DNA of 48,321 bases from positions 1 through 48,321 of IMG/VR virus record IMGVR_UViG_3300002460_000006, one strand, 5' to 3'. This document shows, piece after piece, positions 1-48,321 of the stretch (its first letter is position 1; every line of letters begins with the position of its first letter). The position numbers and the translations under genes are program-made. Below the pieces are notes generated by a model. That model searched no databases. It had not been told where the DNA came from and saw only the letters and a list, made by a program, of their open reading frames with translations. Source of the DNA: a virus.

Positions 1-95
1 ATCAACCGTGAGGTTGACGGCAGCCCCATCGGATTCAAAGAATTTAAGAACATCTCCCGCCAATACTGCGGAGAAGGTGCCGGCCGTCGTAGTAG
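1..95. repeat. Left copy of the 95-bp exact terminal direct repeat (identical to 48227..48321). Read as a circular-assembly overlap.
   Basis: Base-by-base comparison: atcaaccgtgaggttgacgg...cggccgtcgtagtag is present at both ends. The repeat lies inside an open reading frame. Confidence 0.9.
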
Positions 96-2046
96 TGATG
101 CGAAGTTGACCATCCCAAGTTTCAACCAATAAAGGGGCTGCGGTAAACTCCGCCGTAAATTTACCATTAAAGGTGACCGCCGCATCCATGCCAACGAAGT
201 CTTTCAAGTCGGTGACGGTCCGCGGAGCGGTGTACTCGATAGTCCTAACCCCACCTCGATTGGTGATGAAATAGGCCACACTCTGGGCTGTCAAAGACTT
301 CACTACGACCACAGCCTCATATAATGTGTCATTGCTGGTATCGTGTCTTGACCAAGCTTGCATCTGCTGCTCTCGTTGATAAGTGAGCGATATCAAGCTC
401 CCGTCGTCGAAAACCACCCAAACTAAAGGGATCTCCCCGTCTTGGAAAGCCCACGAGACGACCCTCTTACTTTTGAACAGGTGGTTAGAGAAAATGCTAA
501 CCTCTTCACTAGGGTATTTGGACTCATTAGAATATGTCAGATTCCTCACAGAATTTGTGGAAGCATCTACAAATAAAATTCCACCGGGGACTTCAAGAGG
601 CGGCACCTTTGGGTCAATGACATGGTTTGATATCTTATCTAAGGCTAGATTATCAGGAGTCAAAGCACCAGAGGACCTGTAGATACCTACCGTAGTGAAA
701 GCCAACATACCGTCATTGTCCATCATACGAAGCACTTTTGCGCTCCCGGTGGTTCCGGCTTTAAAAGCCAAAGCTGAAGCGGCACTCAAAGGGTATTCTC
801 TATTGAAGTCGTAATGGTAGCCGGAGCGAGATGTAACAATTGACTCTTCGTTATAAGATGAAGAAACCACAAGTCTACCTTGATAAACGGTGACGGTCCG
901 TGGACGTAAGCGATTCACCAGCCATGCCGTAGTGGGGTAAGTCAACCCTGAAGGGTCTAAATCCCTCTGGGTACTGATCACCGACTGAGGGAAAGTGTGA
1001 GTGTAATCCGCATCACCACCGTAGTCGGTGAAAGTGAAACGATACAAAGAACCCGATAAAACTTTAGTAGAAGTCGAACCGATGAAACCGTAGGCGTTTC
1101 CGTCTACCGGTCTTCGGTACACCCTCAACTCTATGTTGGAGGCGTCCGTGCTCGTATCGAAGACGTAAGTGTTAGGGGTGGCGGCCGCCGGTAAAAGTGC
1201 TGCAAAAGTGGACACTGTAGGGTTTGACTCTTGACCCATACCGTTGACGTAAGTGAAGACGTAATCTACAGCATAACCTGTACCGTTAAGTACTTGTGAC
1301 ACGAATGTCGGCTTGGCCGGGTAGAACTCCAAACCTGTAGTTGAAGACGTACCTAAATGAGCTAAGAGCGCACCAGTGCTGGTGACTATTTTCCTAAGAG
1401 GTTTACCCAACAATGAGATGTAGGTGTAAATGCCGCTAGATACGAAATGTAGATCTGGTATGTCGTCTTCATGGAAACCGTGCCCTTCACCGATCGCACT
1501 CGTACCAGCGGAGGTGTCGTGAATGCGAACGAAACAGTGACCAAACTCCAACAGGTACTGACTATAGCGTGGACTATAAACGGTCGTAACAACCCTCTCA
1601 CCGACGTCGGTGGGGGTGATGGTGTGAGTGCCTGCACCCGTAGAGGTGATGTCGACTGCATTTGACTGATACGCTTCCTCCAGCGTTGACGCTAACTTAA
1701 AGGTATCTTCAGTCAAATAAATTACATAATAGGTTGTGGCTGCAACTAGTCCGGCGGGGAGAGTGGTCGTACTAGATACGGTAACTGTCGCACCCGTGTG
1801 CATGAAGTGACCGACCTTGGTACAGATGTCGGTCGTCGCCGCAGTAAACGTCCCGGCACTAGTCGTGACAACACGACTCGCAGCCAATTTAGGTTTTCCA
1901 GCTCGAGTGATGAGTCTGCCGGTCTTGCCCACATGACAGTTTCTGAGAGTGGCAAGACCTGTTCGATATTTGTCTAAAGTGGTACGTTCATGGAGGGCGG
2001 GGTCTAATTCCCCTGCACCAAAAGCCGCTTGAATCTTATAGGCCAT
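1..2046 (-). CDS. Tail tubular B / nozzle-like virion protein, N-terminal 682 codons. The ORF leaves the left edge and continues through the circular junction into 47591..48226, for 893 aa in total.
   Basis: Plus-strand triplets read from position 1 to 2046 contain no tta/cta/tca, so the minus frame is fully open. The ATG at 2046..2044 overlaps the upstream stop (TAATG). The frame joins exactly to ORF 47591..48289 (..TFSAVLAGDVLKFFESDG..). It follows a gp11-like adaptor gene. It is missing from the ORF track only because its stop is off-window. Confidence 0.8.
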   Translation of the reverse strand, partial: MAYKIQAAFGAGELDPALHERTTLDKYRTGLATLRNCHVGKTGRLITRAGKPKLAASRVVTTSAGTFTAATTDICTKVGHFMHTGATVTVSSTTTLPAGLVAATTYYVIYLTEDTFKLASTLEEAYQSNAVDITSTGAGTHTITPTDVGERVVTTVYSPRYSQYLLEFGHCFVRIHDTSAGTSAIGEGHGFHEDDIPDLHFVSSGIYTYISLLGKPLRKIVTSTGALLAHLGTSSTTGLEFYPAKPTFVSQVLNGTGYAVDYVFTYVNGMGQESNPTVSTFAALLPAAATPNTYVFDTSTDASNIELRVYRRPVDGNAYGFIGSTSTKVLSGSLYRFTFTDYGGDADYTHTFPQSVISTQRDLDPSGLTYPTTAWLVNRLRPRTVTVYQGRLVVSSSYNEESIVTSRSGYHYDFNREYPLSAASALAFKAGTTGSAKVLRMMDNDGMLAFTTVGIYRSSGALTPDNLALDKISNHVIDPKVPPLEVPGGILFVDASTNSVRNLTYSNESKYPSEEVSIFSNHLFKSKRVVSWAFQDGEIPLVWVVFDDGSLISLTYQREQQMQAWSRHDTSNDTLYEAVVVVKSLTAQSVAYFITNRGGVRTIEYTAPRTVTDLKDFVGMDAAVTFNGKFTAEFTAAPLLVETWDGQLRITTTTAGTFSAVLAGDVLKFFESDGAAVNLTVD

Positions 2047-2975: not shown

Positions 2976-3413
2976 TTACACCTCTGCGTCTACGACTTTA
3001 GGGAAAGATTTGTAGTTGGCAATCTCATCTTGAGGAACCAGATACACATCTAGTGTGACAGTCGTCGTCCCACCTGTTGCGGTGTTTCTGAAGCCTAGGA
3101 ATTGCTTAGACATCACACCTTGAGGGATTGGAATTTCGTGAACACTACCCACAGTCAAATCTGCTGCAAGAACCGAAATACTTGCAAGAGAAGTGATAGA
3201 AGTTGTCAAAGCGGCGTCTGTCGCCATGATAGCTTCCAATGTGTGAGTGGAACCCGCACCGGCAGCAACCGTTGGAACAACCAACAAGGCCATTCTGCGA
3301 CCGATGGAAAGGTCCTGAGCGGCAGTTTGTTTTTGGTAAGAGTTCGTAGAAACCGTTGCCGCACCCGTGAAGGCTTGAGCGACGGAGAGTTGATTTTCAA
3401 TATCGAATCTCAT
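2976..3413 (-). CDS. Small capsid-associated protein (decoration/cement-type by position only).
   Basis: ATG at 3413 is preceded by GGAGGA with a 7-nt spacer. The track's start at 3428 is a TTG inside that RBS. The gene lies directly downstream of the capsid gene. Confidence 0.55.
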   Translation of the reverse strand: MRFDIENQLSVAQAFTGAATVSTNSYQKQTAAQDLSIGRRMALLVVPTVAAGAGSTHTLEAIMATDAALTTSITSLASISVLAADLTVGSVHEIPIPQGVMSKQFLGFRNTATGGTTTVTLDVYLVPQDEIANYKSFPKVVDAEV

Positions 3414-3435
3414 AGTGAGGTCCTCCAAATTAAAA

Positions 3436-5338: not shown

Positions 5339-5651
5339 TAAGATCGCGAATAATTTTTTCATATTTTTCTCTTTCGATTTGACCAAGAAGTAGACCGGCT
5401 TGCGCAGGGTCCACCTCTGCCACTATTTTGAAAATTGATTGACCGGCTCTTAAGAAACCTAAAACATCGGCCAAGTGTTCACCTGTGAGTCCACGCTCTG
5501 GAAGTTCACCAACACTAAAGTTTTTAAACAGGTACTTGAAAAAAGTACGACCGTAAGTATGGGCTAGGATCGCGCGAATACTCTCGATGGCTTCAAGGTG
5601 TTCCTGTTGGGCCTCAAGTTCTTCGCGCGACATCACTCTCGTAATATCCAT
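5331..5651 (-). CDS. Hypothetical protein.
   Basis: 106-aa ORF whose start overlaps the upstream stop (TAATG). Confidence 0.6.
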   Translation of the reverse strand: MDITRVMSREELEAQQEHLEAIESIRAILAHTYGRTFFKYLFKNFSVGELPERGLTGEHLADVLGFLRAGQSIFKIVAEVDPAQAGLLLGQIEREKYEKIIRDLNE

Positions 5652-12735: not shown

Positions 12736-12969
12736 ATGAAAATGCATAAGAACTTTAAACTAGGTTTGGTTGTTGTCATGGCAAGTATTGCTATCAAAGC
12801 ATTCGCCGCTGATACATATGTTCAGGCCAACGATTGCGCCGGTAAAGAAATGACTGGTAAAGAAGTTGTCGAGACTTTGATCAAAAACCCAAAGGCTAAA
12901 ATCATCAAGTTTAGCTTGGTCGAACTATCTGAAAAGACTGGTAAAATCAAAAACAAGTCGAACCGATAA
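12736..12969 (+). CDS. Small secreted protein (signal peptide).
   Basis: MKMHKNFKLGLVVVMASIAIKAFA|AD. First early gene. Confidence 0.65.
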   Translation: MKMHKNFKLGLVVVMASIAIKAFAADTYVQANDCAGKEMTGKEVVETLIKNPKAKIIKFSLVELSEKTGKIKNKSNR

Positions 12970-13020: not shown

Positions 13021-13344
13021 ATGAAATTATTAATACTAGCTCTTACCATCATTATCGCTTGTCAAAGTAATGCCTCTGAAAAAGGTTATGATAACAATTC
13101 TCTTCACGAATGGGCTGAACGCGTGGTCACAAAGCGTTTCCCTAAACTAAGTAAGTCACAAACACCCTATACCGCTTGCATTGAGCATTCCGCATTCGTT
13201 AAGACCGATGGGCGAGTATACGACGAAACGAAGCTTACAGGCTCGTGGGAAGGTTCAAAACGCCAAGAGGTAAGTCTTGCAATCACTTACGGGGCAGACG
13301 TGGTGAATGCGTGTGCAATACTCATGCATGGCATGGAATGGTGA
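13021..13344 (+). CDS. Putative lipoprotein.
   Basis: ATG 13021 is preceded by GGAG. MKLLILALTIIIAC carries the lipobox IIAC. The track's TTG start at 13006 is less likely. Confidence 0.6.
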   Translation: MKLLILALTIIIACQSNASEKGYDNNSLHEWAERVVTKRFPKLSKSQTPYTACIEHSAFVKTDGRVYDETKLTGSWEGSKRQEVSLAITYGADVVNACAILMHGMEW

Positions 13345-27098: not shown

Positions 27099-27416
27099 AT
27101 GAAGTATTTAGTGTTGAGTTTAGTATTTTTAACAGCTTGTGGAGTTCATTTTTCTGAAGGTACTCGAGTTGGAACGGTATCAAAATTATCTCTAAAAGGT
27201 TTTTTCTGTAAAACATGGGAAGGTGAATTACTTGTAGCAGCTCAAAATGTAATGCAGCCAGAGATATTCTATTTCTCAGTCACCGATGATCGCGTGGTTA
27301 AAAACCTACAGACAGCGATGCGGGAAGGTAAGAATGTGGAATTAACCTATGACCAATATGCCTTTAATCCACCTTGTAGCCCCGCTACTTCATACAGAAT
27401 ACGAGATGTAAAATAA
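27099..27416 (+). CDS. Putative lipoprotein.
   Basis: AAGGAGAG RBS. MKYLVLSLVFLTAC carries the lipobox LTAC. Confidence 0.65.
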   Translation: MKYLVLSLVFLTACGVHFSEGTRVGTVSKLSLKGFFCKTWEGELLVAAQNVMQPEIFYFSVTDDRVVKNLQTAMREGKNVELTYDQYAFNPPCSPATSYRIRDVK

Positions 27417-30198: not shown

Positions 30199-30377
30199 AT
30201 TACGAAATCACTAAAAAAGAAGTCTGGTATTGGCCAGAAACAGACCAGCTACTTCATGCTTACGGTATGGGAAAACAGGGATGGTTAATGTTCTTCACTG
30301 AAGATCGGTATTACTTCTATACAACTACAAAGGTCAACGCAAAACGTAACGGCGTAGTTTTCTTGGGGGAGTTATGA
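30195..30377 (+). CDS. Hypothetical small protein ending ..FLGEL.
   Basis: 60-aa ORF. Confidence 0.55.
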   Translation: MNYEITKKEVWYWPETDQLLHAYGMGKQGWLMFFTEDRYYFYTTTKVNAKRNGVVFLGEL

Positions 30378-30676
30378 ATTGCATCCAAATTGAAACCATA
30401 ACATCGTACTGGACTGGAGAAACAAAGTATCGGGCGACGTGGAGCAACGGGGAAAAGTACTGGTTTAAACGTGGGTATAAAACCAGCGAAAAGTATTTCG
30501 ACAAAGTTTCAAAGCTACTTCAATGGGCTAAAGAGAATCAATGGATCTTGGATTGCCATCCCGGTGGCGGCGCGGGCGTCGGGGTAATGGTTTACATAGG
30601 AGATGTTCCGATACGAGTTTATGCTATTCATTGTTATACGCGAGAACCGCTTAGTGAAACCCCAGAAGATTATTAA
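30374..30676 (+). CDS. Hypothetical protein.
   Basis: 100-aa ORF, coupled. Confidence 0.6.
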   Translation: MNCIQIETITSYWTGETKYRATWSNGEKYWFKRGYKTSEKYFDKVSKLLQWAKENQWILDCHPGGGAGVGVMVYIGDVPIRVYAIHCYTREPLSETPEDY

Positions 30677-30686
30677 GGAGAAAGAA

Positions 30687-30830
30687 ATGAAAGAGTTTAG
30701 AAGTTTTGATTTTGATTATCACCCCAAAAGCCTTGGCTTCGCAGTGTTTCTTTCTTTTGAGGATAATTTTGCAGGCGTTGCTATCGGGCCATGGAGCGCA
30801 TGCTTTAATTGGAGAAAGAATGAAACCTAA
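30687..30830 (+). CDS. 47-aa hypothetical protein.
   Basis: ATG 30687 follows AAGGAGAAAG. Confidence 0.45.
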   Translation: MKEFRSFDFDYHPKSLGFAVFLSFEDNFAGVAIGPWSACFNWRKNET

Positions 30831-31041
30831 AATCCTAGCCCTACTACTCCTAGCCTCATGCGCACATAAGCCGACATGGGAGCAAGCGACCGGATATTGT
30901 TATCGTGAGCACGGTGCGAACGTTGACGAACTCACGAATGCAAGTGAGAGTTTTAGTTTTATGCACACGTATGAAATGGGTGCCTACGCCGGATGCTTGT
31001 TTGGGATTATGGATTTTCAAAACGAAGAGGTGGGAAAATGA
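30820..31041 (+). CDS. Putative lipoprotein (73 aa).
   Basis: ATG 30820 follows GGAGA. MKPKILALLLLASC carries the lipobox LASC. Confidence 0.55.
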   Translation: MKPKILALLLLASCAHKPTWEQATGYCYREHGANVDELTNASESFSFMHTYEMGAYAGCLFGIMDFQNEEVGK

Positions 31042-31610
31042 TATTCGACGAATTAGATTTACCTAAAGACACAGGTTCCACAGATAAGCAAGATTCCGCG
31101 CGACTTGCCGGGATCATGACGGTGTTTGGGTGGCCTGAGAAAGTGGACCTTAACCTATACATTTGCTTAAATCGGAAGCTGGAGGGTCATTACGTTCGTC
31201 ACCCATTAGAGCAAAAATACGACATGTCCAGAGATCAAGCGGTGTGTCTCGTAGCGGGTCTCTATCGTCAAGGGTACCGTTATTTAGTAAGCCTCAAATA
31301 CCTCGACGGCAAGGACATCCTCTCTCCATCTGTACAAGGTCACTTTAGACGTTGTCGAGGTGGTAAGGCGTACTGGTATCAAGACCTTTGGCTCCGGTTT
31401 GATATCTATTGGAGCGCATACGTTGCACCCAAAGACGAAATCAACCAGCTGTTGTGCATGTTGGTGATAGCGGGACCGAAATGGGTCAAGTTGTTCAAGA
31501 AGCACCACTCCTCATGGAGAGAGAATTTAAACGAGTATTGGTGTGGATGGCGCGGCGAACCGGGTCTCGCCGCTACAATGATTAGATTCTTGGAAGGCTA
31601 CGGAACCTAA
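31038..31610 (+). CDS. Hypothetical protein (190 aa).
   Basis: ATG 31038 follows GAGGTGGGAAA and overlaps the upstream stop. Confidence 0.6.
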   Translation: MIFDELDLPKDTGSTDKQDSARLAGIMTVFGWPEKVDLNLYICLNRKLEGHYVRHPLEQKYDMSRDQAVCLVAGLYRQGYRYLVSLKYLDGKDILSPSVQGHFRRCRGGKAYWYQDLWLRFDIYWSAYVAPKDEINQLLCMLVIAGPKWVKLFKKHHSSWRENLNEYWCGWRGEPGLAATMIRFLEGYGT

Positions 31611-32263
31611 GGTCTAACCTTAGCAACCTCTGAGATCGATAATTGACCTGCTGTCAACGTGTAATATACGCGGACGTAATTCATAGGGTAATCTGACCAC
31701 AAATAAAAATTGGCCGTTGCCGTGATGGTCCCTGATTTAGTCACGTCCCCTGAGGCTTTAATCGGTAAGTCTGCGTAATTGGTACCGTCCATGGAACCTT
31801 GGAGTTTAAGTGTTGCACCAGCCAAACTGGTAGGTGTGATGGTGTGAGTCCCTGTTCCAGTATCGGTGATATCAATCGCAGTCGGAACCAAAGCGTCAGC
31901 CAGAGATGCGGCTAGACTAAATGTGTTAGCTGACAAATAGATCACATAGTAATCAGTCGTCGGAGACAGTCCTGCTGGCAGAGTGGTGGTGGTACTGGCT
32001 TGGATCTTCAAACCTGTCTTATAGCCGTGAGCTGTCTTTGTACAAATGTCCGTCGTTGCACAAGTGAATGTCCCTGCTGCCGGTGCGACGTTAGTGACTG
32101 CAACGTGAACTCCATACTTATCAATTCGTCCAACCGTAGTGGCCGCCAAAGCCTGACTGTAGGCAAACTCACCCGTGCTGGCCGTCTGTACAGGTGGGAC
32201 TTGTGCGAAGCTAGTTGCAACGCATAGGGTTAGAAGTATTAGAGTACTTAAAAATAATTTCAT
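31607..32263 (-). CDS. Secreted protein carrying a copy of the nozzle-protein insert domain. It is a lone leftward gene.
   Basis: ATG 32263 follows AGGAGA. Signal peptide MKLFLSTLILLTLCVATSFA|Q. Residues ..GTFTCATTDICTK..TTTLPAGL..YYVIYL..GTGTHTITPT match the nozzle protein. Confidence 0.7.
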   Translation of the reverse strand: MKLFLSTLILLTLCVATSFAQVPPVQTASTGEFAYSQALAATTVGRIDKYGVHVAVTNVAPAAGTFTCATTDICTKTAHGYKTGLKIQASTTTTLPAGLSPTTDYYVIYLSANTFSLAASLADALVPTAIDITDTGTGTHTITPTSLAGATLKLQGSMDGTNYADLPIKASGDVTKSGTITATANFYLWSDYPMNYVRVYYTLTAGQLSISEVAKVRP

Positions 32264-32386
32264 ATTAAATCTCCTGTTAAGTGACAATTTAGAACAAACA
32301 AACCTCTAGGTATAGCTGTTTTTCTAACCGAGTCCGTTTGACTTTTAACATACCGATAAACAAACTAAAGTCCTAAGAGGTGAGTA

Positions 32387-33133
32387 ATGTTAAAAATACC
32401 GTTCGCAGTTCAACACCCTAGAAGAATGCGCACCAAGGGTCCGTACAGTGGCAGAAATGGACCACGCGGCCTACTGGTTCACGCTACCGCTGGTAGGTTC
32501 AACAAGGGTGACCAAAGCGCATTTAAGACGATCGACGGTGGAATTGACGGCGGCCTCGCTTATCTCTGTATCTCTCAGCCCGGAACCCTGGTTCAAGCCC
32601 ATGACGTTAACGAGTGGGGTTGGCACTCAGGAAAGTCCGCATGGGACGTTCCTCTTAAAAGGCTTAATTGGAAAATTGTAGGCCGAGTCGATGACGACTT
32701 GATCGGTTGCGAAAACAACTGCGCAGGGCTCTTAACGAAGGTTGGTCGAAAGTATTACCCCTATTGGGCATTTAAAGACAAAAATCCAAGTACCAAAATC
32801 ATCATAGATCCCGACGAAGATATCCCTGAAGATTTTGTGAGATTCGTTACCAAAGATCTTCACGCCTGTCCAACTGGCTATTATCACAAGTTCACACCTC
32901 AGCAAGAGGACACGCTTACCAGAGCCATCATGTGGCTGTATGTGAATTGTCCTGACTTCAAACTCGAGTACGTACTAGGTCATCACGAAGCTGCCGGAGT
33001 GCCGGGGATCGGTTACTGGAGAAAGAATGATCCGGGCGGAGCCTTTAGTTGGGCGATGCCAGCATTCAGAGAATACCTAATCAAAAACAAACACGCCCTT
33101 ATTGAAAAATACGGCATCACCAAGGTAACATAA
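32387..33133 (+). CDS. N-acetylmuramoyl-L-alanine amidase (Amidase_2 / T7-lysozyme-type) endolysin candidate.
   Basis: GLLVHATAG.., ..WGWHSG.., and LGHHEAAGVPGIGYWRKNDPGG, matching the zinc-ligand pattern H...H..(K)xDPG. Confidence 0.7.
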   Translation: MLKIPFAVQHPRRMRTKGPYSGRNGPRGLLVHATAGRFNKGDQSAFKTIDGGIDGGLAYLCISQPGTLVQAHDVNEWGWHSGKSAWDVPLKRLNWKIVGRVDDDLIGCENNCAGLLTKVGRKYYPYWAFKDKNPSTKIIIDPDEDIPEDFVRFVTKDLHACPTGYYHKFTPQQEDTLTRAIMWLYVNCPDFKLEYVLGHHEAAGVPGIGYWRKNDPGGAFSWAMPAFREYLIKNKHALIEKYGITKVT

Positions 33134-33426
33134 TGTCACTTATCAGATTAAACAATAAGGGTGTACACGCACTTCAGAACAAGGGTCTTAATAAAAGTGA
33201 GATTCATTTGATTTCTATTTTCTTGAACTCTAGTGATCAGGTCGCGACGGCTAACGCTTTATTTATCAGCCATGGTGCGGTCAAATGTCGAATGAGTTGT
33301 ATCTACAATAAACTAGACTTTAAGGGAGTGACTCTACTTTGGCAATGGTTCATTCGAGAGAGATTGATTGAACTGGTCGAAAGCGAAGAGTGTATTAACC
33401 TTCCAAGTTCTCGCGGGTGTCCATAA
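33133..33426 (+). CDS. LuxR/GerE-type HTH protein.
   Basis: LNKSEIHLISIFLNSSDQVATANALFISHGAVKCRMSCIYNKL fits the GerE pattern. The start overlaps the amidase stop (TAATG). Confidence 0.6.
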   Translation: MSLIRLNNKGVHALQNKGLNKSEIHLISIFLNSSDQVATANALFISHGAVKCRMSCIYNKLDFKGVTLLWQWFIRERLIELVESEECINLPSSRGCP

Positions 33427-34021
33427 TTTTCTCAAAATACGGAACGATATTGTGACTACAAAAGTCCAAATACATCTGAGGTAGAATCTCTTTATCCTCT
33501 GGAATGAAGTCTAAGAACTCCGGGCAGAATTTTCGAAAGCACATATATGGTAACTCTGAACAGTAGATTGTTTCGTTCTCGTGAGAGAATGTGTAATCAT
33601 AGTTTCTCTTTGGTTCCAGGAGAGTTAGCGCAAACTTCCAGGCGCTAGTGATAATGCTTTGAGCGAGCGACGTGCGGATGATCGCGACGTGATCTTTTTT
33701 GTAAAGCCACTCTTCTAGAGGCATAGTGCGAACACCACCCTCGTTTACACCATTCACCCAATTATCCCCCACGGCTTCGATGACGGTCAACTGACCGCGA
33801 TACCAAACGACAAGGACTGCGTGTTTGTAAAAGCCTTTAATGAATAAGCTGGTGAACCTTTGGTGTTCATAGCTTAAAAGGATATCCCCGGCCCTTGCGA
33901 CCATAAGGATTTTATCGACGACTTGCTTGGTGATAAGGGTTTCACTTCGACCCACACCTTGCATGAGTTTTTGAACCGGCGTAAAGAATTGTAAAAACCA
34001 AATCTTGAGCTTATTCGACAT
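33395..34021 (-). CDS. Permuted papain-like (YiiX/C92-type) hydrolase candidate.
   Basis: AGDILLSYEH.., HAVLVVWY.., VIEAVGD..GVRTMPLEEWL, and YDYTFSHENETIYCSELPYMCF (conserved Cys). Confidence 0.5.
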   Translation of the reverse strand: MSNKLKIWFLQFFTPVQKLMQGVGRSETLITKQVVDKILMVARAGDILLSYEHQRFTSLFIKGFYKHAVLVVWYRGQLTVIEAVGDNWVNGVNEGGVRTMPLEEWLYKKDHVAIIRTSLAQSIITSAWKFALTLLEPKRNYDYTFSHENETIYCSELPYMCFRKFCPEFLDFIPEDKEILPQMYLDFCSHNIVPYFEKIMDTRENLEG

Positions 34022-34373
34022 CGTCGCCCCACTTTATGTTGGTTCTCAACCACTCTAGAACATCTCTCAGGTACTTACGGATAAGATTGTACTCGGTCGT
34101 GTTCACCCCAAATATCCCATGACAAAACTTTAACGGATGCTCGCCAATGATTGACCATTTCTCCGTATCTTTATTGTAGAGAAGCTCCCGACAAAAGGAC
34201 TTAACTTCACAGTTGAACCCTTGTTCGTCACAAAAGGACTGCTCCACTATCGGCTGTTTTACGGTCACAACAGGAGTTTTCGGAAAGTCTTTAGGCGGAG
34301 TAGATTTGCAGCTAGTCAGCGCCGTTAAGGAAATCAATAGTAGCATCGCGCTGAGCTTTTTCAGTAACGCCAT
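34011..34373 (-). CDS. Lipoprotein with a Pro-rich mature N-terminus (o-spanin-like).
   Basis: MALLKKLSAMLLLISLTALTSC|KSTPPKDFPKTPVV. The start lies 62 nt inside the upstream ORF, in another frame. Confidence 0.6.
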   Translation of the reverse strand: MALLKKLSAMLLLISLTALTSCKSTPPKDFPKTPVVTVKQPIVEQSFCDEQGFNCEVKSFCRELLYNKDTEKWSIIGEHPLKFCHGIFGVNTTEYNLIRKYLRDVLEWLRTNIKWGDDVE

Positions 34374-34587
34374 CTTTTAACGTCTCCTCGTATTTTTCGC
34401 CCTTTATGGTTTCTTTTTTGGCCTTCTCTTCGTTGATGTGTTTACGGAACCTCTTCTCGAGATCTCGCCACACATAGACGATTACGTATTGCCAGAGTTT
34501 TCGCACAACATAACCCTTGACCCCCAACGAGAGGACAAGGGTTTTTGCCGCAAAAGACTCAAGAATTTTCTTAACTCTTTTGTTCAT
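34312..34587 (-). CDS. Small basic protein with a weak N-terminal hydrophobic segment and a charged helical tail (i-spanin-like by arrangement).
   Basis: 91-aa ORF that overlaps the downstream lipoprotein gene. Confidence 0.5.
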   Translation of the reverse strand: MNKRVKKILESFAAKTLVLSLGVKGYVVRKLWQYVIVYVWRDLEKRFRKHINEEKAKKETIKGEKYEETLKDGVTEKAQRDATIDFLNGAD

Positions 34588-34590
34588 GGG

Positions 34591-34809
34591 CTATGCCGGT
34601 TTGTAGTTCATTTGCTTAAGAACCATCTCTAGGATCATAGAGTCTTTCTTCATGATCTCAGACACAAGTTCATAAGAGTCGATTTCAATATGATTTACAG
34701 AGGTAGCGTGAACAGATGCTTTTCCGTCGCTGTCTTTATCGACTTTGTACTCTAAACTAGAGTCTACGATCACTTTACCTGCTTCGATTTTTACTACTGG
34801 TTTTTCCAT
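34591..34809 (-). CDS. Hypothetical small protein.
   Basis: 72-aa ORF with AGGAGAG RBS. Confidence 0.55.
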   Translation of the reverse strand: MEKPVVKIEAGKVIVDSSLEYKVDKDSDGKASVHATSVNHIEIDSYELVSEIMKKDSMILEMVLKQMNYKPA

Positions 34810-34848
34810 AACTAATACTCTCCTGTTGTTGCCATCATTGGCTGTTAA

Positions 34849-35088
34849 TTATTTTTCAACTTTACCTTTTAACTCACCTAGCATTTGCAAGACTTGATTC
34901 AGAGTCACTTGCATCCCATCGAGCTTTGTCCAAATGGTGTCCGATTTCTCTTTAGATTCTACCTTGTGACGATCGAGGTCTTTCTCCAAATACAAAACTT
35001 TCGACTCCAACCTGATACACCAAATCAGGACGAAGATGAGAGACAGAACCAAAGGCCAAGCGTCTAAAATCATTTTAGGATCAGACAT
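34849..35088 (-). CDS. N-terminal single-TM plus coiled-coil protein (holin or i-spanin-like).
   Basis: ATG 35088 follows GGGAGTGAG. MSDPKMILDAWPLVLSLIFVLIWCI is followed by a heptad-like charged region. Confidence 0.55.
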   Translation of the reverse strand: MSDPKMILDAWPLVLSLIFVLIWCIRLESKVLYLEKDLDRHKVESKEKSDTIWTKLDGMQVTLNQVLQMLGELKGKVEK

Positions 35089-35092
35089 AAGC

Positions 35093-35248
35093 TCACTCCC
35101 AAGGTTTGAGTGTTTTACATTTGTAGTACTCTTGATCTTCAACTTGAGCGCAATCTTTCACGAGTGCCGAGTGTGAACACCCTGTCGCGATTAACATCGC
35201 TGCGACTATAAGACCCACAAATAGAGCTTGAATCAGTATTGTTTTCAT
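35093..35248 (-). CDS. 51-aa lipoprotein (not in the supplied track).
   Basis: Hand-translated as MKTILIQALFVGLIVAAMLIATGC|SHSALVKDCAQVEDQEYYKCKTLKPWE. Lipobox ATGC. AGGA RBS. Confidence 0.55.
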   Translation of the reverse strand: MKTILIQALFVGLIVAAMLIATGCSHSALVKDCAQVEDQEYYKCKTLKPWE

Positions 35249-35306
35249 CACATTCCTGCCTTTATAAAAAGTCCTAAAACTATTGCTACGACAATGACAT
35301 CGAAAA

Positions 35307-37820
35307 TCATCTTGGTCCTACGCATATTAAGTTGAACGGATACGCTGTCGGAGTTGCTGTACTATCGCCCGAACCAATTGCGATGGAACTTGAGCTAATA
35401 GCATTCTGATAAATGTATCTAAACCCTGATGTTTCTGTGACCGTGCAAATAGGCGCTGCGCTAAATATCGAAGCTGTAAAGGTACATGTTCTAATATTGT
35501 TACTAGTCCCAGAGACTGCGCAATTGCCGCTGATCCAGTCTCCCGTACCCTCAACAACTACACCCGCTGCCGATACCGTGGCAGATTCTATTCGAGTGAG
35601 CCCTGTAGAGCTAGAAGTCACGCCTCCCACAAGCAGAGGTGCGTTTTGATTTTCGGTCCAGCCAGTTATTGGAATTGGCCCTAAAGTTCCGCTGATTGTC
35701 GTGGCGCTGTAGGTTCCAGATGTTAAGGTCTGAAACGCGTTGGTTTGGATACCGAAACCAATGTGGGTTGTGTCACCCGATTTAACCAGACCGTAAATCG
35801 TCGCGGTGTTTCCAGATGAACCAAGTACACCTATTGGGACCGCTTGAGCACCAATCACAGTTGTATTAATAGCTAGCCCTGTCGGCAGCTCTAAAAGCTG
35901 GTTGACCCCGGTCAAAGTACCTGCAAGAAAATCAACTTTTAAGTATAAGTTTTGACCTACCCTTTTATGATAGACCGCCGTAGTCGAAACCGTTCCCCAC
36001 CCGGTGTAAGTTGGTGTGTACAGAGTCCAATCATAATTCGATTGATCCATGCGGACGGCGGTTTGTGATTGGGACGGGAAGTAATTAATATTCAGGTAGC
36101 TATATTGGGATCCTGCTACGATGTCGTAAGAAGTATCCGCAGCAGAATCTGCAAAAACTTCGATGTAATCGTTAACCACTAGATCAAGCTGACAAGTAAC
36201 TTTTTCTCTTGTGACAGCATCGTTTGAACCGCTTAGACAAACTGCTGCTCCATTTTTATAAATAGCAGCATCATGCTGTTCGGTCGCATGACTCGCAGTT
36301 AAGTAAGCCATCACAATCTGATATGAACCGTCTTTCTTTATCGTGTATCTGAAATTTGTTGTCGTATCCATTCCATTGTATGGATCTTTAGATGTCGCAT
36401 TCCACTGAACCTTAGTCGCCGAAGCTGAGGATATGGTTTGATTAGTGGAGTTTCTATAGGCGATTAGAACTGACTCAGCCTGAGCCACAGTCCCAATATT
36501 CCTAGCAACGCCCACGTAAGCGTCATCGGCATAGACATCGCCGGTTGAGCCAGAAGGTGAGTAAAGTCCAACGCCAACGCTTCCGCTAGAGGGGCCTGGG
36601 TAATTAATCGGGTACTCGTGCCATACGTCGTCCGTAAGAACGTCCGTACAAACACCAACCACTGCACCTGTATTTAAAGGGCAGACTTGAACACCTGAAG
36701 TAGAGGTTTTTACCCTGAAGTAATGCTCGAGATTCATACCAGACATTTGAATAGTTGGCGTGACATTCTGAAACCAGAACAGTCCACTTTGAGCGGCAAG
36801 CGTGAGCTTTACAGATTTTTTACCGTGTCTGATAACCGTAGTCTCAGCCGCTGGCGTAGTGCTGCCTAAAGCACTCCAACTTGTCCCATAGGTCGAATGC
36901 TCAAAGCTTGGGTTTAGAAGTAAATTATTATTACCGGTCTCAATTAAACGCTCGCTCGATCCTGTAGTGGTAAATTGGTCATAAGGTACCTTGATCGTTG
37001 TACTGGTTACACCTGAACCTTCCGATTGACCTTGCGCTGTGAGAGCTGCATCACCCCAAGTGGGGGCCAACGTAGTACCGTTGGACATTAAAAATTGACC
37101 GGCAGTACCGTTAGCGAGTCGAGTCCCAGTCCCAGAAGACCCACCATAAATCAGATCTCCACCTGTAGTCATAGGTGAGAGGGCATCAAAGCTTGCTGAT
37201 GCCGTGGTTTGGCCTGTACCACCACTGGTTAAAGGTAGGGCCGTACCGGATAAGGTGACAGCCAGAGTACCACTTGTAGTGATTGGGTTTCCTGAAACTG
37301 ACAAGAACGTGGGAACGCTCATGTCTACGCTGGTTACACCCGTGGCCGGTGCCGCAGACCAAACCGGAAGTCCTGCCGATAAAGTTAAAATCTCACCGTT
37401 GGCACCAATTGGTAATCTGGTCCCAGTCCCAGACACTCCACCGTAGATAAGATCTCCGGCAGTAGTCATAGGTGAGAGGGCATCAAATCCCGCTGAGGCA
37501 GTCGTCTGTCCTGTACCACCGTTTGTGATCGGTAAGGTACCGGTTACACCCGTGGTTAAAGGTAGACCTGTGGCGTTGGTGAGAACTCCTGACGAAGGTG
37601 TACCTAGTGCCGGTGTAGTGAATACAGGTGACGTTAAAGTCTTATTGGTGAGGGTGTCCGTGCTGTCTCTACCTACCAACGTATCCGATGCGGCCGGTGG
37701 AGTGAACGTCTTAGAAAGGTCGTTCGACTTCCAAGTATCCCCTTGTAAGGTTTTAGTTGCGGCAAAAGCAATGCTCGCACAAAAGACAAAGAACACGAGC
37801 GTTTTCAGTAATTGTTTCAT
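35307..37820 (-). CDS. Tail-fibre-like receptor-binding protein with an N-terminal Sec-type signal peptide.
   Basis: MKQLLKTLVFFVFCASIAFA|A. The module GGTGQTTASA(G/S)FDALSPMTT(A/G)GDLIYGG.SGTGTRL is duplicated. Thr/Ser/Gly-rich. Confidence 0.75.
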   Translation of the reverse strand: MKQLLKTLVFFVFCASIAFAATKTLQGDTWKSNDLSKTFTPPAASDTLVGRDSTDTLTNKTLTSPVFTTPALGTPSSGVLTNATGLPLTTGVTGTLPITNGGTGQTTASAGFDALSPMTTAGDLIYGGVSGTGTRLPIGANGEILTLSAGLPVWSAAPATGVTSVDMSVPTFLSVSGNPITTSGTLAVTLSGTALPLTSGGTGQTTASASFDALSPMTTGGDLIYGGSSGTGTRLANGTAGQFLMSNGTTLAPTWGDAALTAQGQSEGSGVTSTTIKVPYDQFTTTGSSERLIETGNNNLLLNPSFEHSTYGTSWSALGSTTPAAETTVIRHGKKSVKLTLAAQSGLFWFQNVTPTIQMSGMNLEHYFRVKTSTSGVQVCPLNTGAVVGVCTDVLTDDVWHEYPINYPGPSSGSVGVGLYSPSGSTGDVYADDAYVGVARNIGTVAQAESVLIAYRNSTNQTISSASATKVQWNATSKDPYNGMDTTTNFRYTIKKDGSYQIVMAYLTASHATEQHDAAIYKNGAAVCLSGSNDAVTREKVTCQLDLVVNDYIEVFADSAADTSYDIVAGSQYSYLNINYFPSQSQTAVRMDQSNYDWTLYTPTYTGWGTVSTTAVYHKRVGQNLYLKVDFLAGTLTGVNQLLELPTGLAINTTVIGAQAVPIGVLGSSGNTATIYGLVKSGDTTHIGFGIQTNAFQTLTSGTYSATTISGTLGPIPITGWTENQNAPLLVGGVTSSSTGLTRIESATVSAAGVVVEGTGDWISGNCAVSGTSNNIRTCTFTASIFSAAPICTVTETSGFRYIYQNAISSSSIAIGSGDSTATPTAYPFNLICVGPR

Positions 37821-47590: not shown

Positions 47591-48321
47591 TTAACTCCTG
47601 TGAATTTCTAAATCAGGAATCAGTGACAGAATCTCCAAAGGTAGAGGGTCCACTTGTCGGATACACACTCGTCCGTGGGATTGCCAATCTCCAGGGATAT
47701 CGAACGTCATTCGACGAGTATAGGGTTTCTGACACGCGTTCCCGATCATGTCCGTTAAGTCTCCATCATCATCGAGTCGAGTCTCGGGGTCAACCATATC
47801 GATATTAGTGTCGTCTGGACCAAAAGAAGAGGAAATATAACCACCTCTAGAGTCATGAACTTTCAGGTGAATCCTGGAAGCCAGTACCGATTCTATAAGG
47901 GTTGGCTTCTGTTCTACAGTGTCCACGTCTAGAGTTTCGATATCACACACGTAAGGTAGACCTACTTGGACTATCGCCGAGTTGGCGTAGGTGTCGGGGA
48001 TGGTAAGGGAGCCGCTCTCAACCATTAAGATGTCCAAATCATCGATTTCATTAAAAGGTGAACTGACCACATAGCCATCGGCTAACACCGATACATGAAG
48101 TCCGTCTAAGTGATCCAATCCCGTAAGGGTCGTATAGGTAGTATATAATTCGGTGAAATCCGTAGCTTCAGCCAAAGGGAAAAGAACGTCAGGTGTCACG
48201 ACAAGGCTTGTGGCGCTCTCAACGGTATCAACCGTGAGGTTGACGGCAGCCCCATCGGATTCAAAGAATTTAAGAACATCTCCCGCCAATACTGCGGAGA
48301 AGGTGCCGGCCGTCGTAGTAG
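47591..48321 (-). CDS. C-terminal part of the same nozzle-like protein. 48227..48321 duplicates 1..95. The track's TTG 'start' at 48289 is an internal Leu codon.
   Basis: The frame stays open to the right edge, and its sequence continues the 1..2046 frame. Confidence 0.8.
   Translation of the reverse strand, partial: TTTAGTFSAVLAGDVLKFFESDGAAVNLTVDTVESATSLVVTPDVLFPLAEATDFTELYTTYTTLTGLDHLDGLHVSVLADGYVVSSPFNEIDDLDILMVESGSLTIPDTYANSAIVQVGLPYVCDIETLDVDTVEQKPTLIESVLASRIHLKVHDSRGGYISSSFGPDDTNIDMVDPETRLDDDGDLTDMIGNACQKPYTRRMTFDIPGDWQSHGRVCIRQVDPLPLEILSLIPDLEIHRS
48227..48321. repeat. Right copy of the 95-bp terminal direct repeat.
   Basis: Identical to 1..95. Confidence 0.9.

What the first reader, a model, noticed from the sequence alone, without database searches (positions are those of the whole stretch)
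31607..32263. Lone secreted protein sharing an ~85-aa domain with the virion nozzle protein
The 218-aa product has a clear Sec signal peptide (..LCVATSFA|Q). Its residues encoded by 31826..32083 read AGTFTCATTDICTKTAHGYKTGLKIQASTTTTLPAGLSPTTDYYVIYLSANTFSLAASLADALVPTAIDITDTGTGTHTITPT. This aligns at roughly 55-60 percent identity with a segment of the nozzle-like protein encoded by ~1597..1863 (AGTFTAATTDICTKVGHFMHTGATVTVSSTTTLPAGLVAATTYYVIYLTEDTFKLASTLEEAYQSNAVDITSTGAGTHTITPT).

The nucleotide differences I compared in the opening codons are largely at third codon positions. This suggests an old duplication under purifying selection rather than an assembly artefact.

The gene is its own leftward unit, wedged between rightward genes, which is a moron-like placement. 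A periplasm- or surface-targeted copy of an exposed virion domain suggests receptor masking, superinfection exclusion, or a decoy. It could also be a genuinely exported accessory to infection.
Basis: partly seen in the sequence, partly recalled or inferred. Interest (0 to 1): 0.65.

Follow-up and report, generated by a model that had tools for sequence, protein, structure and literature searches.

The report
Exported cement-protein-like phage accessory protein
A phage of an uncultured groundwater bacterium makes a secreted copy of a capsid-cement-type protein carrying a sugar-binding-type knob normally found on phage tails; relatives switch repeatedly between secreted and non-secreted versions, so it probably acts on the host cell envelope, not inside the virus particle.

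Summary
The gene (32263..31607, minus strand, 218 aa) has a Shine-Dalgarno site and a typical Sec signal peptide. Residues 59-148 match residues 60-149 of the 893-aa nozzle-like tail protein: 59% identity, E 9e-26, dN/dS about 0.2 with dS saturated.

- **Architecture.** The protein is a jelly roll homologous to the BPP-1 capsid cement protein, with an inserted 90-aa beta-barrel.
- **The domain is common.** It occurs in 15,125 protein clusters, in up to 27 tandem copies. Only 23 of 91 nozzle homologues carry it. Secreted family members occur in phages whose nozzle lacks it. There is no within-genome excess of similarity. The nozzle link is therefore incidental.
- **Not a moron.** In relatives from three phage lineages the gene follows the fibre and small-membrane-protein (lysis) genes, usually as the last late gene. 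In the window an opposite-strand amidase cassette isolates it.
- **Export looks real.** Signal-peptide-bearing and signal-peptide-free orthologues alternate at the same locus. The signal peptide co-occurs almost perfectly with an extra cysteine, suggesting a periplasmic disulfide.
- **A second exported protein.** The neighbouring 837-aa fibre-like protein also has a conserved signal peptide.

Best reading: a Sec-exported, envelope-binding accessory acting at lysis or release, analogous to XepA. The function is untested.

The parts
31607..32263 (-). CDS of the 218-aa exported protein, stop codon included
   Evidence: ORF. SD AGGAG 8 nt upstream of ATG 32263. 644 homologues at E<=1e-3.
32204..32263 (-). 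Sec-type signal peptide, residues 1-20 (MKLFLSTLILLTLCVATSFA, predicted cut before Q21)
   Evidence: Heuristic n-h-c scan. Signal-peptide-free orthologues begin at the predicted mature N-terminus. Codon coordinates.
32090..32203 (-). N-terminal strands of the jelly roll, residues 21-58
   Evidence: AF2 model with pLDDT 92.6, strands 29-33 and 49-59. Their pairing with the C-terminal strands is inferred.
31820..32089 (-). Inserted 90-aa beta-barrel domain (residues 59-148) shared with the nozzle-like protein. Contains C68 (32060..32062) and C74 (32042..32044).
   Evidence: BLASTP E 9e-26. Domain-only AF2 pLDDT 94.6. Foldseek finds the Uba1 FCCH and phage endosialidase beta-barrels. Tail-fibre matches in BFVD at rmsd about 2 A.
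31610..31819 (-). C-terminal half of the jelly roll (residues 149-218), homologous to the BPP-1 cement protein Bbp16
   Evidence: Profile against PDB hits 3j4u_H at E 2.1e-5. hhalign against Bbp16 gives prob 93.9, E 1.5e-7.
32271..32291 (-). Conserved 21-nt leader TAAATTGTCACTTAACAGGAG, which includes the SD
   Evidence: Identical in relative L016 and unique in the window and in all fetched loci. Function unknown.
1600..1869 (-). Paralogous copy of the beta-barrel domain inside the nozzle-like tail protein (residues 60-149)
   Evidence: It is an insertion relative to BPP-1 Bbp13 and to 68 of 91 homologues.
1..2046 (-). N-terminal 682 codons of the 893-aa nozzle-like tail protein. The gene continues across the circular junction to 47591..48226.
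47591..48226 (-). C-terminal part of the nozzle-like tail protein
2976..3428 (-). The phage's canonical cement-protein gene, next to the major capsid protein gene
   Evidence: phrog_427 at 4.5e-6. BPP-1 Bbp16 hits the same phrog at 3e-41. Same position as in BPP-1.
35307..37820 (-). 837-aa fibre-like late protein that also has a Sec-type signal peptide (MKQLLKTLVFFVFCASIAFA|A) and 8 cysteines, three close pairs plus 792/833. A likely functional partner.
   Evidence: Signal-peptide-bearing counterparts are present in L003, L005-L008, L011, L012 and L016.
32387..33426 (+). Opposite-strand two-gene cassette (Amidase_2 endolysin-like, then a 97-aa protein similar in sequence to the GerE-annotated L016 protein) that separates the gene from the late operon
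   Evidence: The same cassette is in L016.
33395..35251 (-). Putative lysis block at the end of the late operon: 52-aa lipoprotein, TM + coiled-coil protein, small proteins, 120-aa lipoprotein, Peptidase_C92

Best explanation
**What it is.** The gene encodes a Sec-exported periplasmic accessory protein of the phage's late fibre-lysis gene block. It is not a virion part, not a moron, and not specifically a decoy of the nozzle.

**Architecture.**
- A cleavable signal peptide (residues 1-20).
- A jelly roll that is a paralogue of the BPP-1-type capsid cement protein (about residues 21-58 plus 149-218).
- A 90-aa beta-barrel inserted into a loop of the jelly roll. Its fold is that of the glycan-binding beta-barrel of phage endosialidases. 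The module is widespread and often tandemly repeated in tail and fibre proteins.

**Proposed mechanism (inferred).**
1. The protein is made late in infection.
2. It is carried across the inner membrane by Sec and cut after SFA.
3. It is stabilised by a C68-C74 disulfide in the oxidising periplasm.
4. It binds a repetitive envelope glycan (peptidoglycan or a nascent or surface polysaccharide) through the barrel.
5. It acts at the lysis or release stage. It either helps envelope breakdown and escape, as proposed for the exported jelly-roll protein XepA of the PBSX lysis cassette, or coats glycan receptors on the dying cell and its debris.
6. It probably works with the neighbouring signal-peptide-bearing fibre-like protein.

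Orthologues without a signal peptide would reach the same site through holin lesions or at lysis. This parallels endolysins, which exist in both Sec-exported and holin-dependent forms.

**Shown versus inferred.** Shown: the architecture, the homologies, the synteny, and the coupling of signal peptide with cysteine. Inferred: export, the disulfide, glycan binding, timing and role.
For: **Architecture**
- AF2 model, pLDDT 92.6.
- Family profile hits the BPP-1 cement protein 3j4u_H at E 2.1e-5. hhalign against Bbp16 gives prob 93.9 and E 1.5e-7.
- The phage has its own canonical cement-protein gene beside the capsid gene, so this is a second paralogue.

**Inserted domain**
- The domain model (pLDDT 94.6) matches the Uba1 FCCH barrel at TMq 0.6-0.65 and the phi92/K1F-type endosialidase barrels at TMq about 0.5.
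- The endosialidase barrel holds a polysialic-acid binding site (PMC12632334).
- The domain occurs in 15,125 representative clusters, in up to 27 tandem copies. Some proteins have 3-11 domain matches, the last running on into the C-terminal jelly-roll half.

**Export**
- The N-terminus has the n-h-c pattern.
- Signal-peptide-free orthologues start at the predicted mature end, behind strong SD sites.
- Among 118 homologues, 32 of 35 signal-peptide-bearing members have Cys68. Only 3 of 83 'signal-peptide-free' members do, and all three are mis-called starts.
- In a set de-replicated at 50% identity, 11 of 14 signal-peptide-bearing members have Cys68 against 0 of 53 without.
- A rough NJ tree needs at least 9 state changes. 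P0057 is a signal-peptide + Cys68 member nested among signal-peptide-free ones in that tree, in a different phage lineage, which suggests an independent gain.

**Position**
- The gene follows the fibre genes and the lysis genes or small membrane proteins in every locus examined, across three phage lineages. Signal-peptide-bearing: L003, L005, L006, L011, L012, L016. Signal-peptide-free at the same spot: L007, L008.
- All 7 phages examined that carry a signal-peptide-bearing family member also encode a signal-peptide-bearing fibre-like protein.

**Precedent**
- XepA is a jelly-roll protein of a phage lysis cassette. It is exported and is absent from particles (PMC6834076).
- XepA and YomS appear among the weak Foldseek hits.
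Against: - No experiment, and no cultured phage carries the two-domain protein. tblastn against 50,697 phage records found only partial matches limited to the domain region.
- I could not run SignalP or inspect the model coordinates, so cleavage and C68-C74 proximity are inferred.
- The endosialidase and FCCH fold matches have E > 0.02 and there is no sequence-level family hit. Glycan binding is therefore only an analogy.
- Signal-peptide-free members in the L001/L009 lineage lie between the capsid and adaptor genes, which also fits a virion decoration role.
- A soluble periplasmic protein cannot reach receptors on the outer face of the outer membrane before lysis.
- Expression timing is unknown. 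No convincing promoter or terminator was found.
- The signal-peptide/Cys statistics are not phylogenetically corrected, and the tree is rough.
Confidence: 0.4

Rival explanations
1. Superinfection exclusion or receptor masking. The exported protein, possibly with the exported fibre-like protein, blocks a step of infection by the same or related phages. It would do this by occupying an envelope receptor or glycan, or, like T4 Spackle, by binding a tail or ejection component that enters the periplasm.
For: - The protein is periplasm-targeted.
- It carries a domain typical of tail, fibre and nozzle proteins.
- It co-occurs with a signal-peptide-bearing fibre-like protein that has a conserved N-terminus and a variable C-terminus, the pattern of receptor-binding proteins.
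- Precedents: T4 Spackle (PMC7677548) and T5 Llp (PMC9586334), both listed.
Against: - The gene sits at the end of the late operon, not among the early genes where exclusion functions usually lie.
- Signal-peptide-free orthologues at the same locus (L007, L008) could not act before lysis.
- Exported members exist where the nozzle lacks the domain, and there is no within-genome co-variation with the nozzle copy.
- A periplasmic protein cannot reach outer-surface receptors.
Confidence: 0.2
2. Capsid or virion decoration protein. The family is an auxiliary cement or decoration protein whose barrel projects from the particle. In the signal-peptide-bearing forms it matures in the periplasm by oxidative folding and joins particles when holin lesions or lysis mix the compartments.
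For: - It is homologous to a proven capsid cement protein.
- Signal-peptide-free members of the L001/L009 lineage lie inside the structural module between the capsid and adaptor genes.
- The mature sequence is well conserved between signal-peptide-bearing and signal-peptide-free orthologues (57-62% identity to the target for the two signal-peptide-free ones, P0029 and P0040), which suggests the same partner.
- The fibre-like protein at the position of the BPP-1 receptor-binding protein Mtd also has a signal peptide and paired cysteines.
Against: - No tailed phage is known to add periplasm-exported proteins to its particle (my own knowledge).
- The phage already has a canonical cement protein beside the capsid gene.
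- In the window lineage and in L011 the gene sits with lysis genes, far from the head genes.
- The family spans phages with very different capsid proteins (341-aa BPP-1-like against 425-aa SU10-like).
- Dilution at lysis would make binding inefficient.
Confidence: 0.12
3. Ordinary cytoplasmic protein. The hydrophobic N-terminus is not a working export signal: it is a membrane anchor, an annotation artefact, or neutral.
For: No direct export data. SignalP was not available. About four fifths of family representatives lack the segment.
Against: - A strong SD lies just upstream of the ATG that starts the hydrophobic segment.
- The n-h-c pattern is kept across diverged orthologues although the sequence itself varies.
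- Small residues are kept at -3/-1.
- The near-perfect coupling with an extra cysteine is hard to explain without an oxidising compartment.
Confidence: 0.05
4. Lysogenic-conversion moron: a host-fitness gene expressed from a prophage, like lambda bor, which lies just past the lysis genes.
For: It encodes an exported protein located just after the lysis cassette. In the window it sits alone between opposite-strand genes.
Against: - No integrase or recombinase was found among the ORFs scanned, and no repressor was identified.
- GC content is 47.8% against 45.7% for the genome.
- The gene has a conserved position and orientation in relatives.
- No promoter or terminator pair was found.
- Only 3 MAG contigs, and no clear prophage, were found among 185,579 species genomes.
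Confidence: 0.03

Closest known systems
BPP-1 cement protein Bbp16 (PDB 3j4u chain H; phrog_427)
   Same: The jelly roll is homologous by sequence profile (E 2.1e-5 against PDB; hhalign prob 93.9). The phage itself is BPP-1-like in its capsid protein, nozzle-like protein and gene order.
   Different: Bbp16 is 140 aa, has no signal peptide and no inserted domain, is encoded next to the capsid gene, and binds the capsid as dimers (PMC3863775). The target has a signal peptide and a 90-aa insertion, lies at the far end of the late genes, and coexists with a canonical Bbp16-type gene.
XepA / YomS of the Bacillus subtilis PBSX and SPbeta lysis cassettes (PDB 6i56, 6i5o)
   Same: Both are late phage proteins built of jelly-roll-type beta-sandwiches and encoded with the lysis genes. 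XepA is exported across the cytoplasmic membrane and is absent from particles (PMC6834076). This is the closest match for how the target probably works.
   Different: Fold similarity is only weak (Foldseek prob 0.16-0.54) and there is no sequence similarity. XepA is a pentameric dumbbell from a Gram-positive host and has no fibre-type barrel.
Beta-barrel domain of phage endosialidases (phi92, K1F/NF; PDB 4hiz, 3gvk) and the E1 FCCH barrel
   Same: The small beta-barrel fold is the same (TMq 0.5-0.65). In endosialidases it is likewise an inserted accessory module and binds the capsule polymer (PMC12632334).
   Different: E-values are above 0.02. The target has no Pfam match and no sequence match in the PDB. 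Ligand binding is untested.
T4 Spackle and T5 Llp (exported superinfection-exclusion proteins)
   Same: Both are phage-encoded proteins targeted to the periplasm or outer membrane that interfere with incoming phage (PMC7677548, PMC9586334).
   Different: They are early genes, are unrelated in sequence and fold, and have defined partners (gp5 lysozyme, FhuA). The target is in the late block and has signal-peptide-free orthologues.
Endolysins with and without secretion signals (Sec/SAR versus holin-dependent)
   Same: Orthologous proteins acting outside the cytoplasm alternate between signal-bearing and signal-free forms. Both are encoded in or next to the lysis cassette.
   Different: The target has no recognisable catalytic domain.

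Membership tests
Sec (signal peptidase I) substrates | Basic n-region, uncharged hydrophobic h-region of 10-16 residues, small residues at -3/-1 | tested here: met
   MK / LFLSTLILLTLCVATS / S-F-A | Q. The pattern is kept in 35-38 diverged orthologues.
Sec (signal peptidase I) substrates | Demonstrated export and cleavage | not testable with these tools
   No SignalP and no experiment. Indirect support: the coupling with Cys68 and the mature end coinciding with the start of signal-peptide-free orthologues.
BPP-1-type capsid cement protein (Bbp16 / phrog_427) | Jelly-roll fold with detectable sequence homology | tested here: met
   E 2.1e-5. hhalign prob 93.9 over 71 columns. Only the C-terminal half aligns.
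BPP-1-type capsid cement protein (Bbp16 / phrog_427) | Encoded directly downstream of the major capsid protein gene | tested here: not met
   That position is held by 2976..3428 (phrog_427). Along the late (minus-strand) transcription direction, the target lies about 19 kb downstream of the capsid gene, at the far end of the late genes.
BPP-1-type capsid cement protein (Bbp16 / phrog_427) | Cytoplasmic protein that binds the capsid lattice | not testable with these tools
   The signal peptide argues against cytoplasmic assembly. Capsid binding was not tested.
Moron / lysogenic-conversion gene | Sporadic presence among related phages, own promoter and terminator, deviant composition, temperate phage | tested here: not met
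   Conserved position in eight relatives with signal-peptide-bearing or signal-peptide-free orthologues. GC 47.8% against 45.7%. No promoter or terminator pair. No integrase found among the ORFs scanned.
Superinfection-exclusion proteins of the Spackle / Llp kind | Sequence or fold relationship to a known member | tested here: not met
   No such hits in Pfam, PHROGs, PDB sequence or Foldseek searches.
Superinfection-exclusion proteins of the Spackle / Llp kind | Blocks adsorption or DNA entry of the same or related phage when expressed | not testable with these tools
   Needs the (unknown) host and the phage.
Endosialidase-type / FCCH-type beta-barrel module | Same fold | tested here: inconclusive
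   TMq 0.5-0.65 and prob up to 1.0, but E 0.02-0.3. No match of the target to PF12195 or PF16190 at E<1. PF16190 is precomputed on some nozzle homologues.
Endosialidase-type / FCCH-type beta-barrel module | Binds a polysaccharide | not testable with these tools
   Analogy only (PMC12632334).
XepA-like exported lysis-cassette proteins | Exported, encoded with lysis genes, absent from virions, promotes lysis or is cytotoxic | tested here: inconclusive
   Position next to lysis or small membrane genes: met. Export: inferred. Absence from virions and activity: not testable. Fold similarity: weak.

The most novel reading that the evidence does not exclude
In this phage group, outward-facing virion proteins are routed through the periplasm for oxidative folding and are added to otherwise finished particles only when holin lesions or lysis mix the compartments. 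The proteins concerned are the variable fibre-like protein at the position of the BPP-1 receptor-binding protein and this cement-protein paralogue. That would be extracytoplasmic completion of a tailed-phage virion, toggled on and off in evolution by gain and loss of a signal peptide together with a cysteine pair.
Probability: 0.08. Interest if true: 0.92.

Novelty: new variant of a known kind. Interest (0 to 1): 0.6.

Why it matters
- **Exported phage proteins are little studied.** Apart from lysis and exclusion factors, few are characterised. Here a fold that normally cements capsids, fused to a module that normally sits on tails, has been turned repeatedly into a secreted protein. Each time the change came with a cysteine that would close a disulfide only outside the cytoplasm.
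- **It gives a clean evolutionary marker.** A signal peptide plus a cysteine pair could be used to find other virion-derived proteins that act in the envelope.
- **It defines a large uncharacterised family.** The family reaches 557 representative clusters at E<=1e-30 and has no cultured member.
- **It points to a gene set worth testing.** The set (signal-peptide fibre-like protein, small membrane proteins, this protein) may act at release or in receptor masking.
- **It corrects an attractive but unsupported idea,** namely that the protein is a decoy of the phage's own nozzle.

Tried and rejected
- **Pfam** on the target and the nozzle found nothing meaningful.
- **tblastn against 50,697 cultured and deposited phage genomes** gave only partial matches limited to the domain region, and no full-length relative.
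- **Whole-model Foldseek against PDB** gave only weak global matches: single-jelly-roll capsid proteins, PirA, XepA/YomS.
- **The domain profile against PDB sequences** gave no significant hit.
- **The window's canonical cement protein** gave nothing against PDB or against the family profile by pairwise methods. Its identity rests on phrog_427.
- **BPP-1 Bbp1**, the last late gene of BPP-1, was tested as a positional counterpart. It is not homologous; it is a membrane protein.
- **Concerted evolution between the nozzle copy and the exported copy** was tested and rejected.
- **Bacteroidota host.** I considered this because of the ..FAQ cleavage motif, and rejected it because every orthologue has a strong Shine-Dalgarno site.
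- **Promoter and terminator scan** was at background level.
- **Host search in 185,579 species genomes** found only three MAG contigs (Pyrinomonadaceae, Burkholderiales, Acidobacteria), so the host is unresolved.
- **Sequencing runs** place the phage in groundwater and soil metagenomes. I did not lay any reads.
- **Profile search with the N-termini of the signal-peptide fibre-like proteins** returned only short, low-information hits.
- **Pfam and PHROGs on the signal-peptide fibre-like proteins** gave nothing above the curated thresholds. One relative had a sub-threshold CBM_5_12 match.
Full report
**1. The observation**

The window is a circularly assembled phage genome. Its first and last 95 bases are identical, so the genome is 48,226 bp.

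The gene in question is an ORF at 31607..32287 on the minus strand. The ATG at 32263 lies 8 nt after an AGGAG.

Its N-terminus, MKLFLSTLILLTLCVATSFA|QVPP, has a basic start, a 16-residue uncharged hydrophobic core and small residues at -3 and -1.

It starts at 2046, runs off the left end and continues from 48226 to 47591, giving 893 aa. It matches phrog_376 'tail protein' at 1e-89. It is homologous to BPP-1 Bbp13, the tail protein that follows the adaptor-like Bbp14 (E 5e-22).

BLASTP of the two window proteins gives 53/90 identities (59%) with no gaps, E 9e-26. The match is residues 59-148 against 60-149, or 31820..32089 against 1600..1869 in window coordinates.

At the DNA level identity is 60.7%, and the differences fall 28/23/55 on codon positions 1/2/3. 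NG86 gives dN 0.37 and dS 1.61, a ratio of 0.23, with dS close to saturation. The longest exact run is 14 nt. The observation and the claim of an old duplication under purifying selection are both confirmed.

**2. What the protein is**

AlphaFold2, run with a 116-sequence family alignment, gives a confident model (pLDDT 92.6, pTM 0.82). It shows:
- a helix at residues 2-18;
- beta-strands at 29-33 and 49-59;
- a compact unit at about 60-148;
- five more strands at 150-217.

A profile of the family hits one PDB sequence, chain H of 3j4u, the 'cementing protein' of Bordetella phage BPP-1 (E 2.1e-5). Profile-to-sequence alignment with Bbp16 gives probability 93.9% and E 1.5e-7 over 71 columns, covering the C-terminal half.

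Bbp16 is a 140-aa jelly roll that binds as dimers on the outside of the capsid (PMC3863775).

The window phage is BPP-1-like:
- its capsid protein finds the BPP-1 / Pseudomonas AF / Ab31 group at up to 40% identity;
- its structural gene order follows that of BPP-1;
- it already has a canonical cement-protein gene next to the capsid gene (2976..3428, phrog_427, the same family as Bbp16).

The 218-aa protein is therefore a second, divergent cement-protein paralogue, with a 90-aa domain inserted in a loop of the jelly roll. That the N- and C-terminal strands form one jelly roll is inferred from the model's secondary structure and from the Bbp16 alignment.

**3. The shared domain**

Modelled alone, the domain is a small beta-barrel with one short helix (pLDDT 94.6).

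The nearest solved folds are:
- the FCCH barrel of ubiquitin E1 enzymes (TMq 0.6-0.65);
- the beta-barrel domain of phage endosialidases phi92 and NF (TMq about 0.5).

All have E > 0.02. There is no sequence-level match in the PDB and no Pfam match for the target. In endosialidases that barrel is an inserted accessory module with a polysialic-acid binding site (PMC12632334).

In predicted viral structures the domain superposes at about 2 A on parts of annotated tail fibre proteins. PHROGs and tblastn find it in tail fibre, minor tail and baseplate proteins of unrelated phages.

An exhaustive profile search finds 15,125 representative clusters at E <= 1e-3. Among them are proteins with up to 27 tandem copies. 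Others have 3-11 domain matches, the last running on into the C-terminal jelly-roll half. This is a common, mobile module that is often repeated, which is the behaviour expected of a binding or spacer unit for repetitive ligands.

**4. The nozzle link is incidental**

- Of 91 nozzle homologues, only 23 carry the domain. Some have two or three copies, or carry it near the C-terminus. The other 68 go straight from the conserved N-terminal block to the conserved 'EWGH.YVRIH' block.
Signal-peptide-bearing family members P0012 and P0027 sit in phages whose nozzles (P0164, P0173) lack the domain. The signal-peptide-free member P0029 sits with a nozzle that has it.
- The target's domain is 59% identical to its own nozzle's copy and 60% identical to the copy in another phage's nozzle.
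- Copies within the exported family average 69% identity. Nozzle copies average 38% among themselves.

There is no within-genome homogenisation, and there is no consistent pairing of an exported copy with a nozzle copy.

**5. Placement**

In relatives L003, L005, L006, L007, L008 and L011 the orthologue lies on the same strand as the late genes. It is the last called gene on that strand, after the giant internal protein, two fibre-type genes and a set of small membrane proteins or lysis genes. Where the contig continues, it faces the convergent replication or anti-defence block.

In the window, and in its closest complete relative L016, an opposite-strand cassette sits between the lysis genes and this gene. 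The cassette holds an Amidase_2 protein and a GerE/LuxR-like protein. That is why the gene looks like a lone leftward unit.

Its GC content is that of the genome. No integrase was found among the ORFs scanned. A moron is therefore unlikely.

In a different podovirus lineage (L001, L009, L012) the family member lies between the capsid or fibre genes and the adaptor and nozzle genes. In L001 and L012 it again comes directly after small membrane proteins.

**6. Evidence that export is real and evolutionarily labile**

- Most family members have no signal peptide. They begin, behind strong Shine-Dalgarno sites, about where the predicted mature protein begins.
- Signal-peptide-free orthologues (P0029 in L007, P0040 in L008) occupy exactly the same locus in phages of the window's own clade.
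- Among 118 homologues, 32 of 35 signal-peptide-bearing members have a cysteine at target position 68. Only 3 of 83 'signal-peptide-free' members do, and those three are visibly mis-called starts of signal-peptide-bearing proteins.
- Cys74 is widespread in both classes among these 118 homologues, and the nozzle copy has it too.
- In a set de-replicated at 50% identity the figures are 11 of 14 against 0 of 53.
- A rough neighbour-joining tree needs at least nine changes of signal-peptide state.
- P0057, in the L001-type lineage, is a signal-peptide + Cys68 member nested among signal-peptide-free ones in that tree, which suggests an independent gain.

A second cysteine that appears only together with a signal peptide is what one expects if a C68-C74 disulfide forms in the periplasm. 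The statistics are not corrected for phylogeny, and I could not inspect the model geometry.

**7. Context: a second exported late protein**

The 837-aa fibre-like protein two to three kb upstream (35307..37820) also begins with a typical signal peptide (MKQLLKTLVFFVFCASIAFA|A). It has eight cysteines, three close pairs plus 792/833.

Its positional counterparts in L003, L005-L008, L011, L012 and L016 all have signal peptides. In eight of the nine (all but L003) a conserved stretch (..KS.D.TKTWT.PA.S.TL..) follows, and then C-termini of variable length.

All 7 phages examined that carry a signal-peptide-bearing family member also encode such a protein. Signal-peptide-free members occur both with it and without it. 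The window also encodes several lipoproteins and other signal-peptide proteins.

**8. Mechanism**

The best-supported reading is a Sec-exported, disulfide-stabilised periplasmic protein that binds an envelope component through its barrel and acts at the lysis or release stage.

The alternation of signal-bearing and signal-free orthologues next to lysis genes parallels endolysins. Endolysins reach the same extracytoplasmic target either by Sec or through holin lesions.

The closest functional precedent is XepA of the PBSX lysis cassette. XepA is a jelly-roll protein that is exported and absent from particles. It is cytotoxic, and its authors propose that it supports lysis. They themselves noted the resemblance to the BPP-1 cement protein (PMC6834076). 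XepA and YomS appear among the weak Foldseek hits.

The data do not decide whether the protein helps envelope breakdown, masks glycan receptors on the dying cell and its debris, or excludes superinfecting phage. I give about 0.4 to the composite 'exported envelope-binding release-stage accessory'. The rivals get:

| Rival | Confidence |
|---|---|
| Exclusion in the Spackle/Llp sense | 0.2 |
| Virion decoration (includes the periplasmic-maturation route) | 0.12 |
| No real export | 0.05 |
| Moron | 0.03 |

**9. Comparison with known systems, and novelty**

- The jelly roll is a member of the BPP-1 cement-protein superfamily by sequence. It fails that family's positional and cytoplasmic features.
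- The barrel resembles the endosialidase and FCCH barrels only at the fold level.
- Nothing links it by sequence or fold to Spackle or Llp.
- No cultured phage in the 50,697-record collection carries the two-domain protein.
- The phage comes from groundwater and soil metagenomes, and the host is unresolved.

I rate it a new variant of a known kind. Exported phage accessory proteins and shuffled tail modules are both known. A cement-protein paralogue that toggles between cytoplasmic and exported forms, with a coupled cysteine, has not to my knowledge been described.

Noticed in passing
window 35307-37820 (minus); L003 6369-8453, L005 6405-8222, L006 5381-6598, L007 4733-7819, L008 5671-8541, L011 7372-9081, L012 4795-7230, L016 3498-6632: The variable fibre-like protein sits where BPP-1 has its receptor-binding protein Mtd. 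In every relative examined it carries a Sec-type signal peptide. In all but L003 a conserved stretch (..KS.D.TKTWT.PA.S.TL..) follows. It usually has an even number of cysteines in local pairs. A signal peptide on a receptor-binding-type fibre is unexpected for a tailed phage.
   Followed up: partly
window 1-95 and 48227-48321: An identical 95-bp terminal overlap shows the window is a circular assembly of 48,226 bp. The nozzle-like gene spans the junction.
   Followed up: yes
window 32387-33426 (plus); L016 7808-9939: An opposite-strand cassette (Amidase_2 plus a GerE/LuxR-like small protein) is inserted between the late lysis genes and the target. The closest complete relative has the same cassette. 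The phage therefore has two wall hydrolases: Amidase_2, and Peptidase_C92 at 33395-34021.
   Followed up: partly
window 32271-32291 (minus); L016 9969-9989: A 21-nt sequence, TAAATTGTCACTTAACAGGAG, lies just upstream of the start codon. It is identical in the window and L016, while the rest of the intergenic region differs. It is unique in the window and in all fetched loci. It may be a promoter, an operator or a translational element.
   Followed up: partly
window 12736-12969, 13021-13344, 27099-27416, 30820-31041 (plus); 34011-34373, 35093-35251, 5651-6673 (minus): The 48-kb phage has an unusually large set of predicted exported proteins. Five are lipobox lipoproteins (13021-13344, 27099-27416, 30820-31041, 34011-34373, 35093-35251). 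One is a 77-aa signal-peptide protein. One is a 340-aa protein in the head module with a hydrophobic N-terminus.
   Followed up: no
window 34849-35142 (minus); L011 9094-9351; L012 7376-7594; L003 8456-8737; L005 8222-8470; L007 7946-8149; L008 8541-8759: A small protein with one transmembrane segment and a coiled coil follows the signal-peptide fibre-like gene in most relatives examined, directly in L003, L005, L008, L011 and L012. It could be a holin, an i-spanin, or a membrane partner of the exported fibre-like protein.
   Followed up: no
P0134, P0135, P0176, P0193 (nozzle homologues); P0232 (2987 aa): Some nozzle homologues carry two or three copies of the barrel domain, or carry it near the C-terminus. 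One protein has 27 tandem copies. Some jelly-roll proteins have 3-11 domain matches.
   Followed up: partly
L003 10864-11103, L005 10672-11082, L006 11217-11540, L008 10595-11057: In relatives, the genes convergent with the family member include Acb2/Tad1-like and Tad2-like anti-defence sponge proteins. No such Pfam hit was found for the corresponding window ORFs at 30374-31610.
   Followed up: partly
L009 9249-9998: In one signal-peptide-free lineage the gene just upstream of the family member (249 aa) also contains the barrel domain (phrog_30390, phrog_2885 hits).
   Followed up: no
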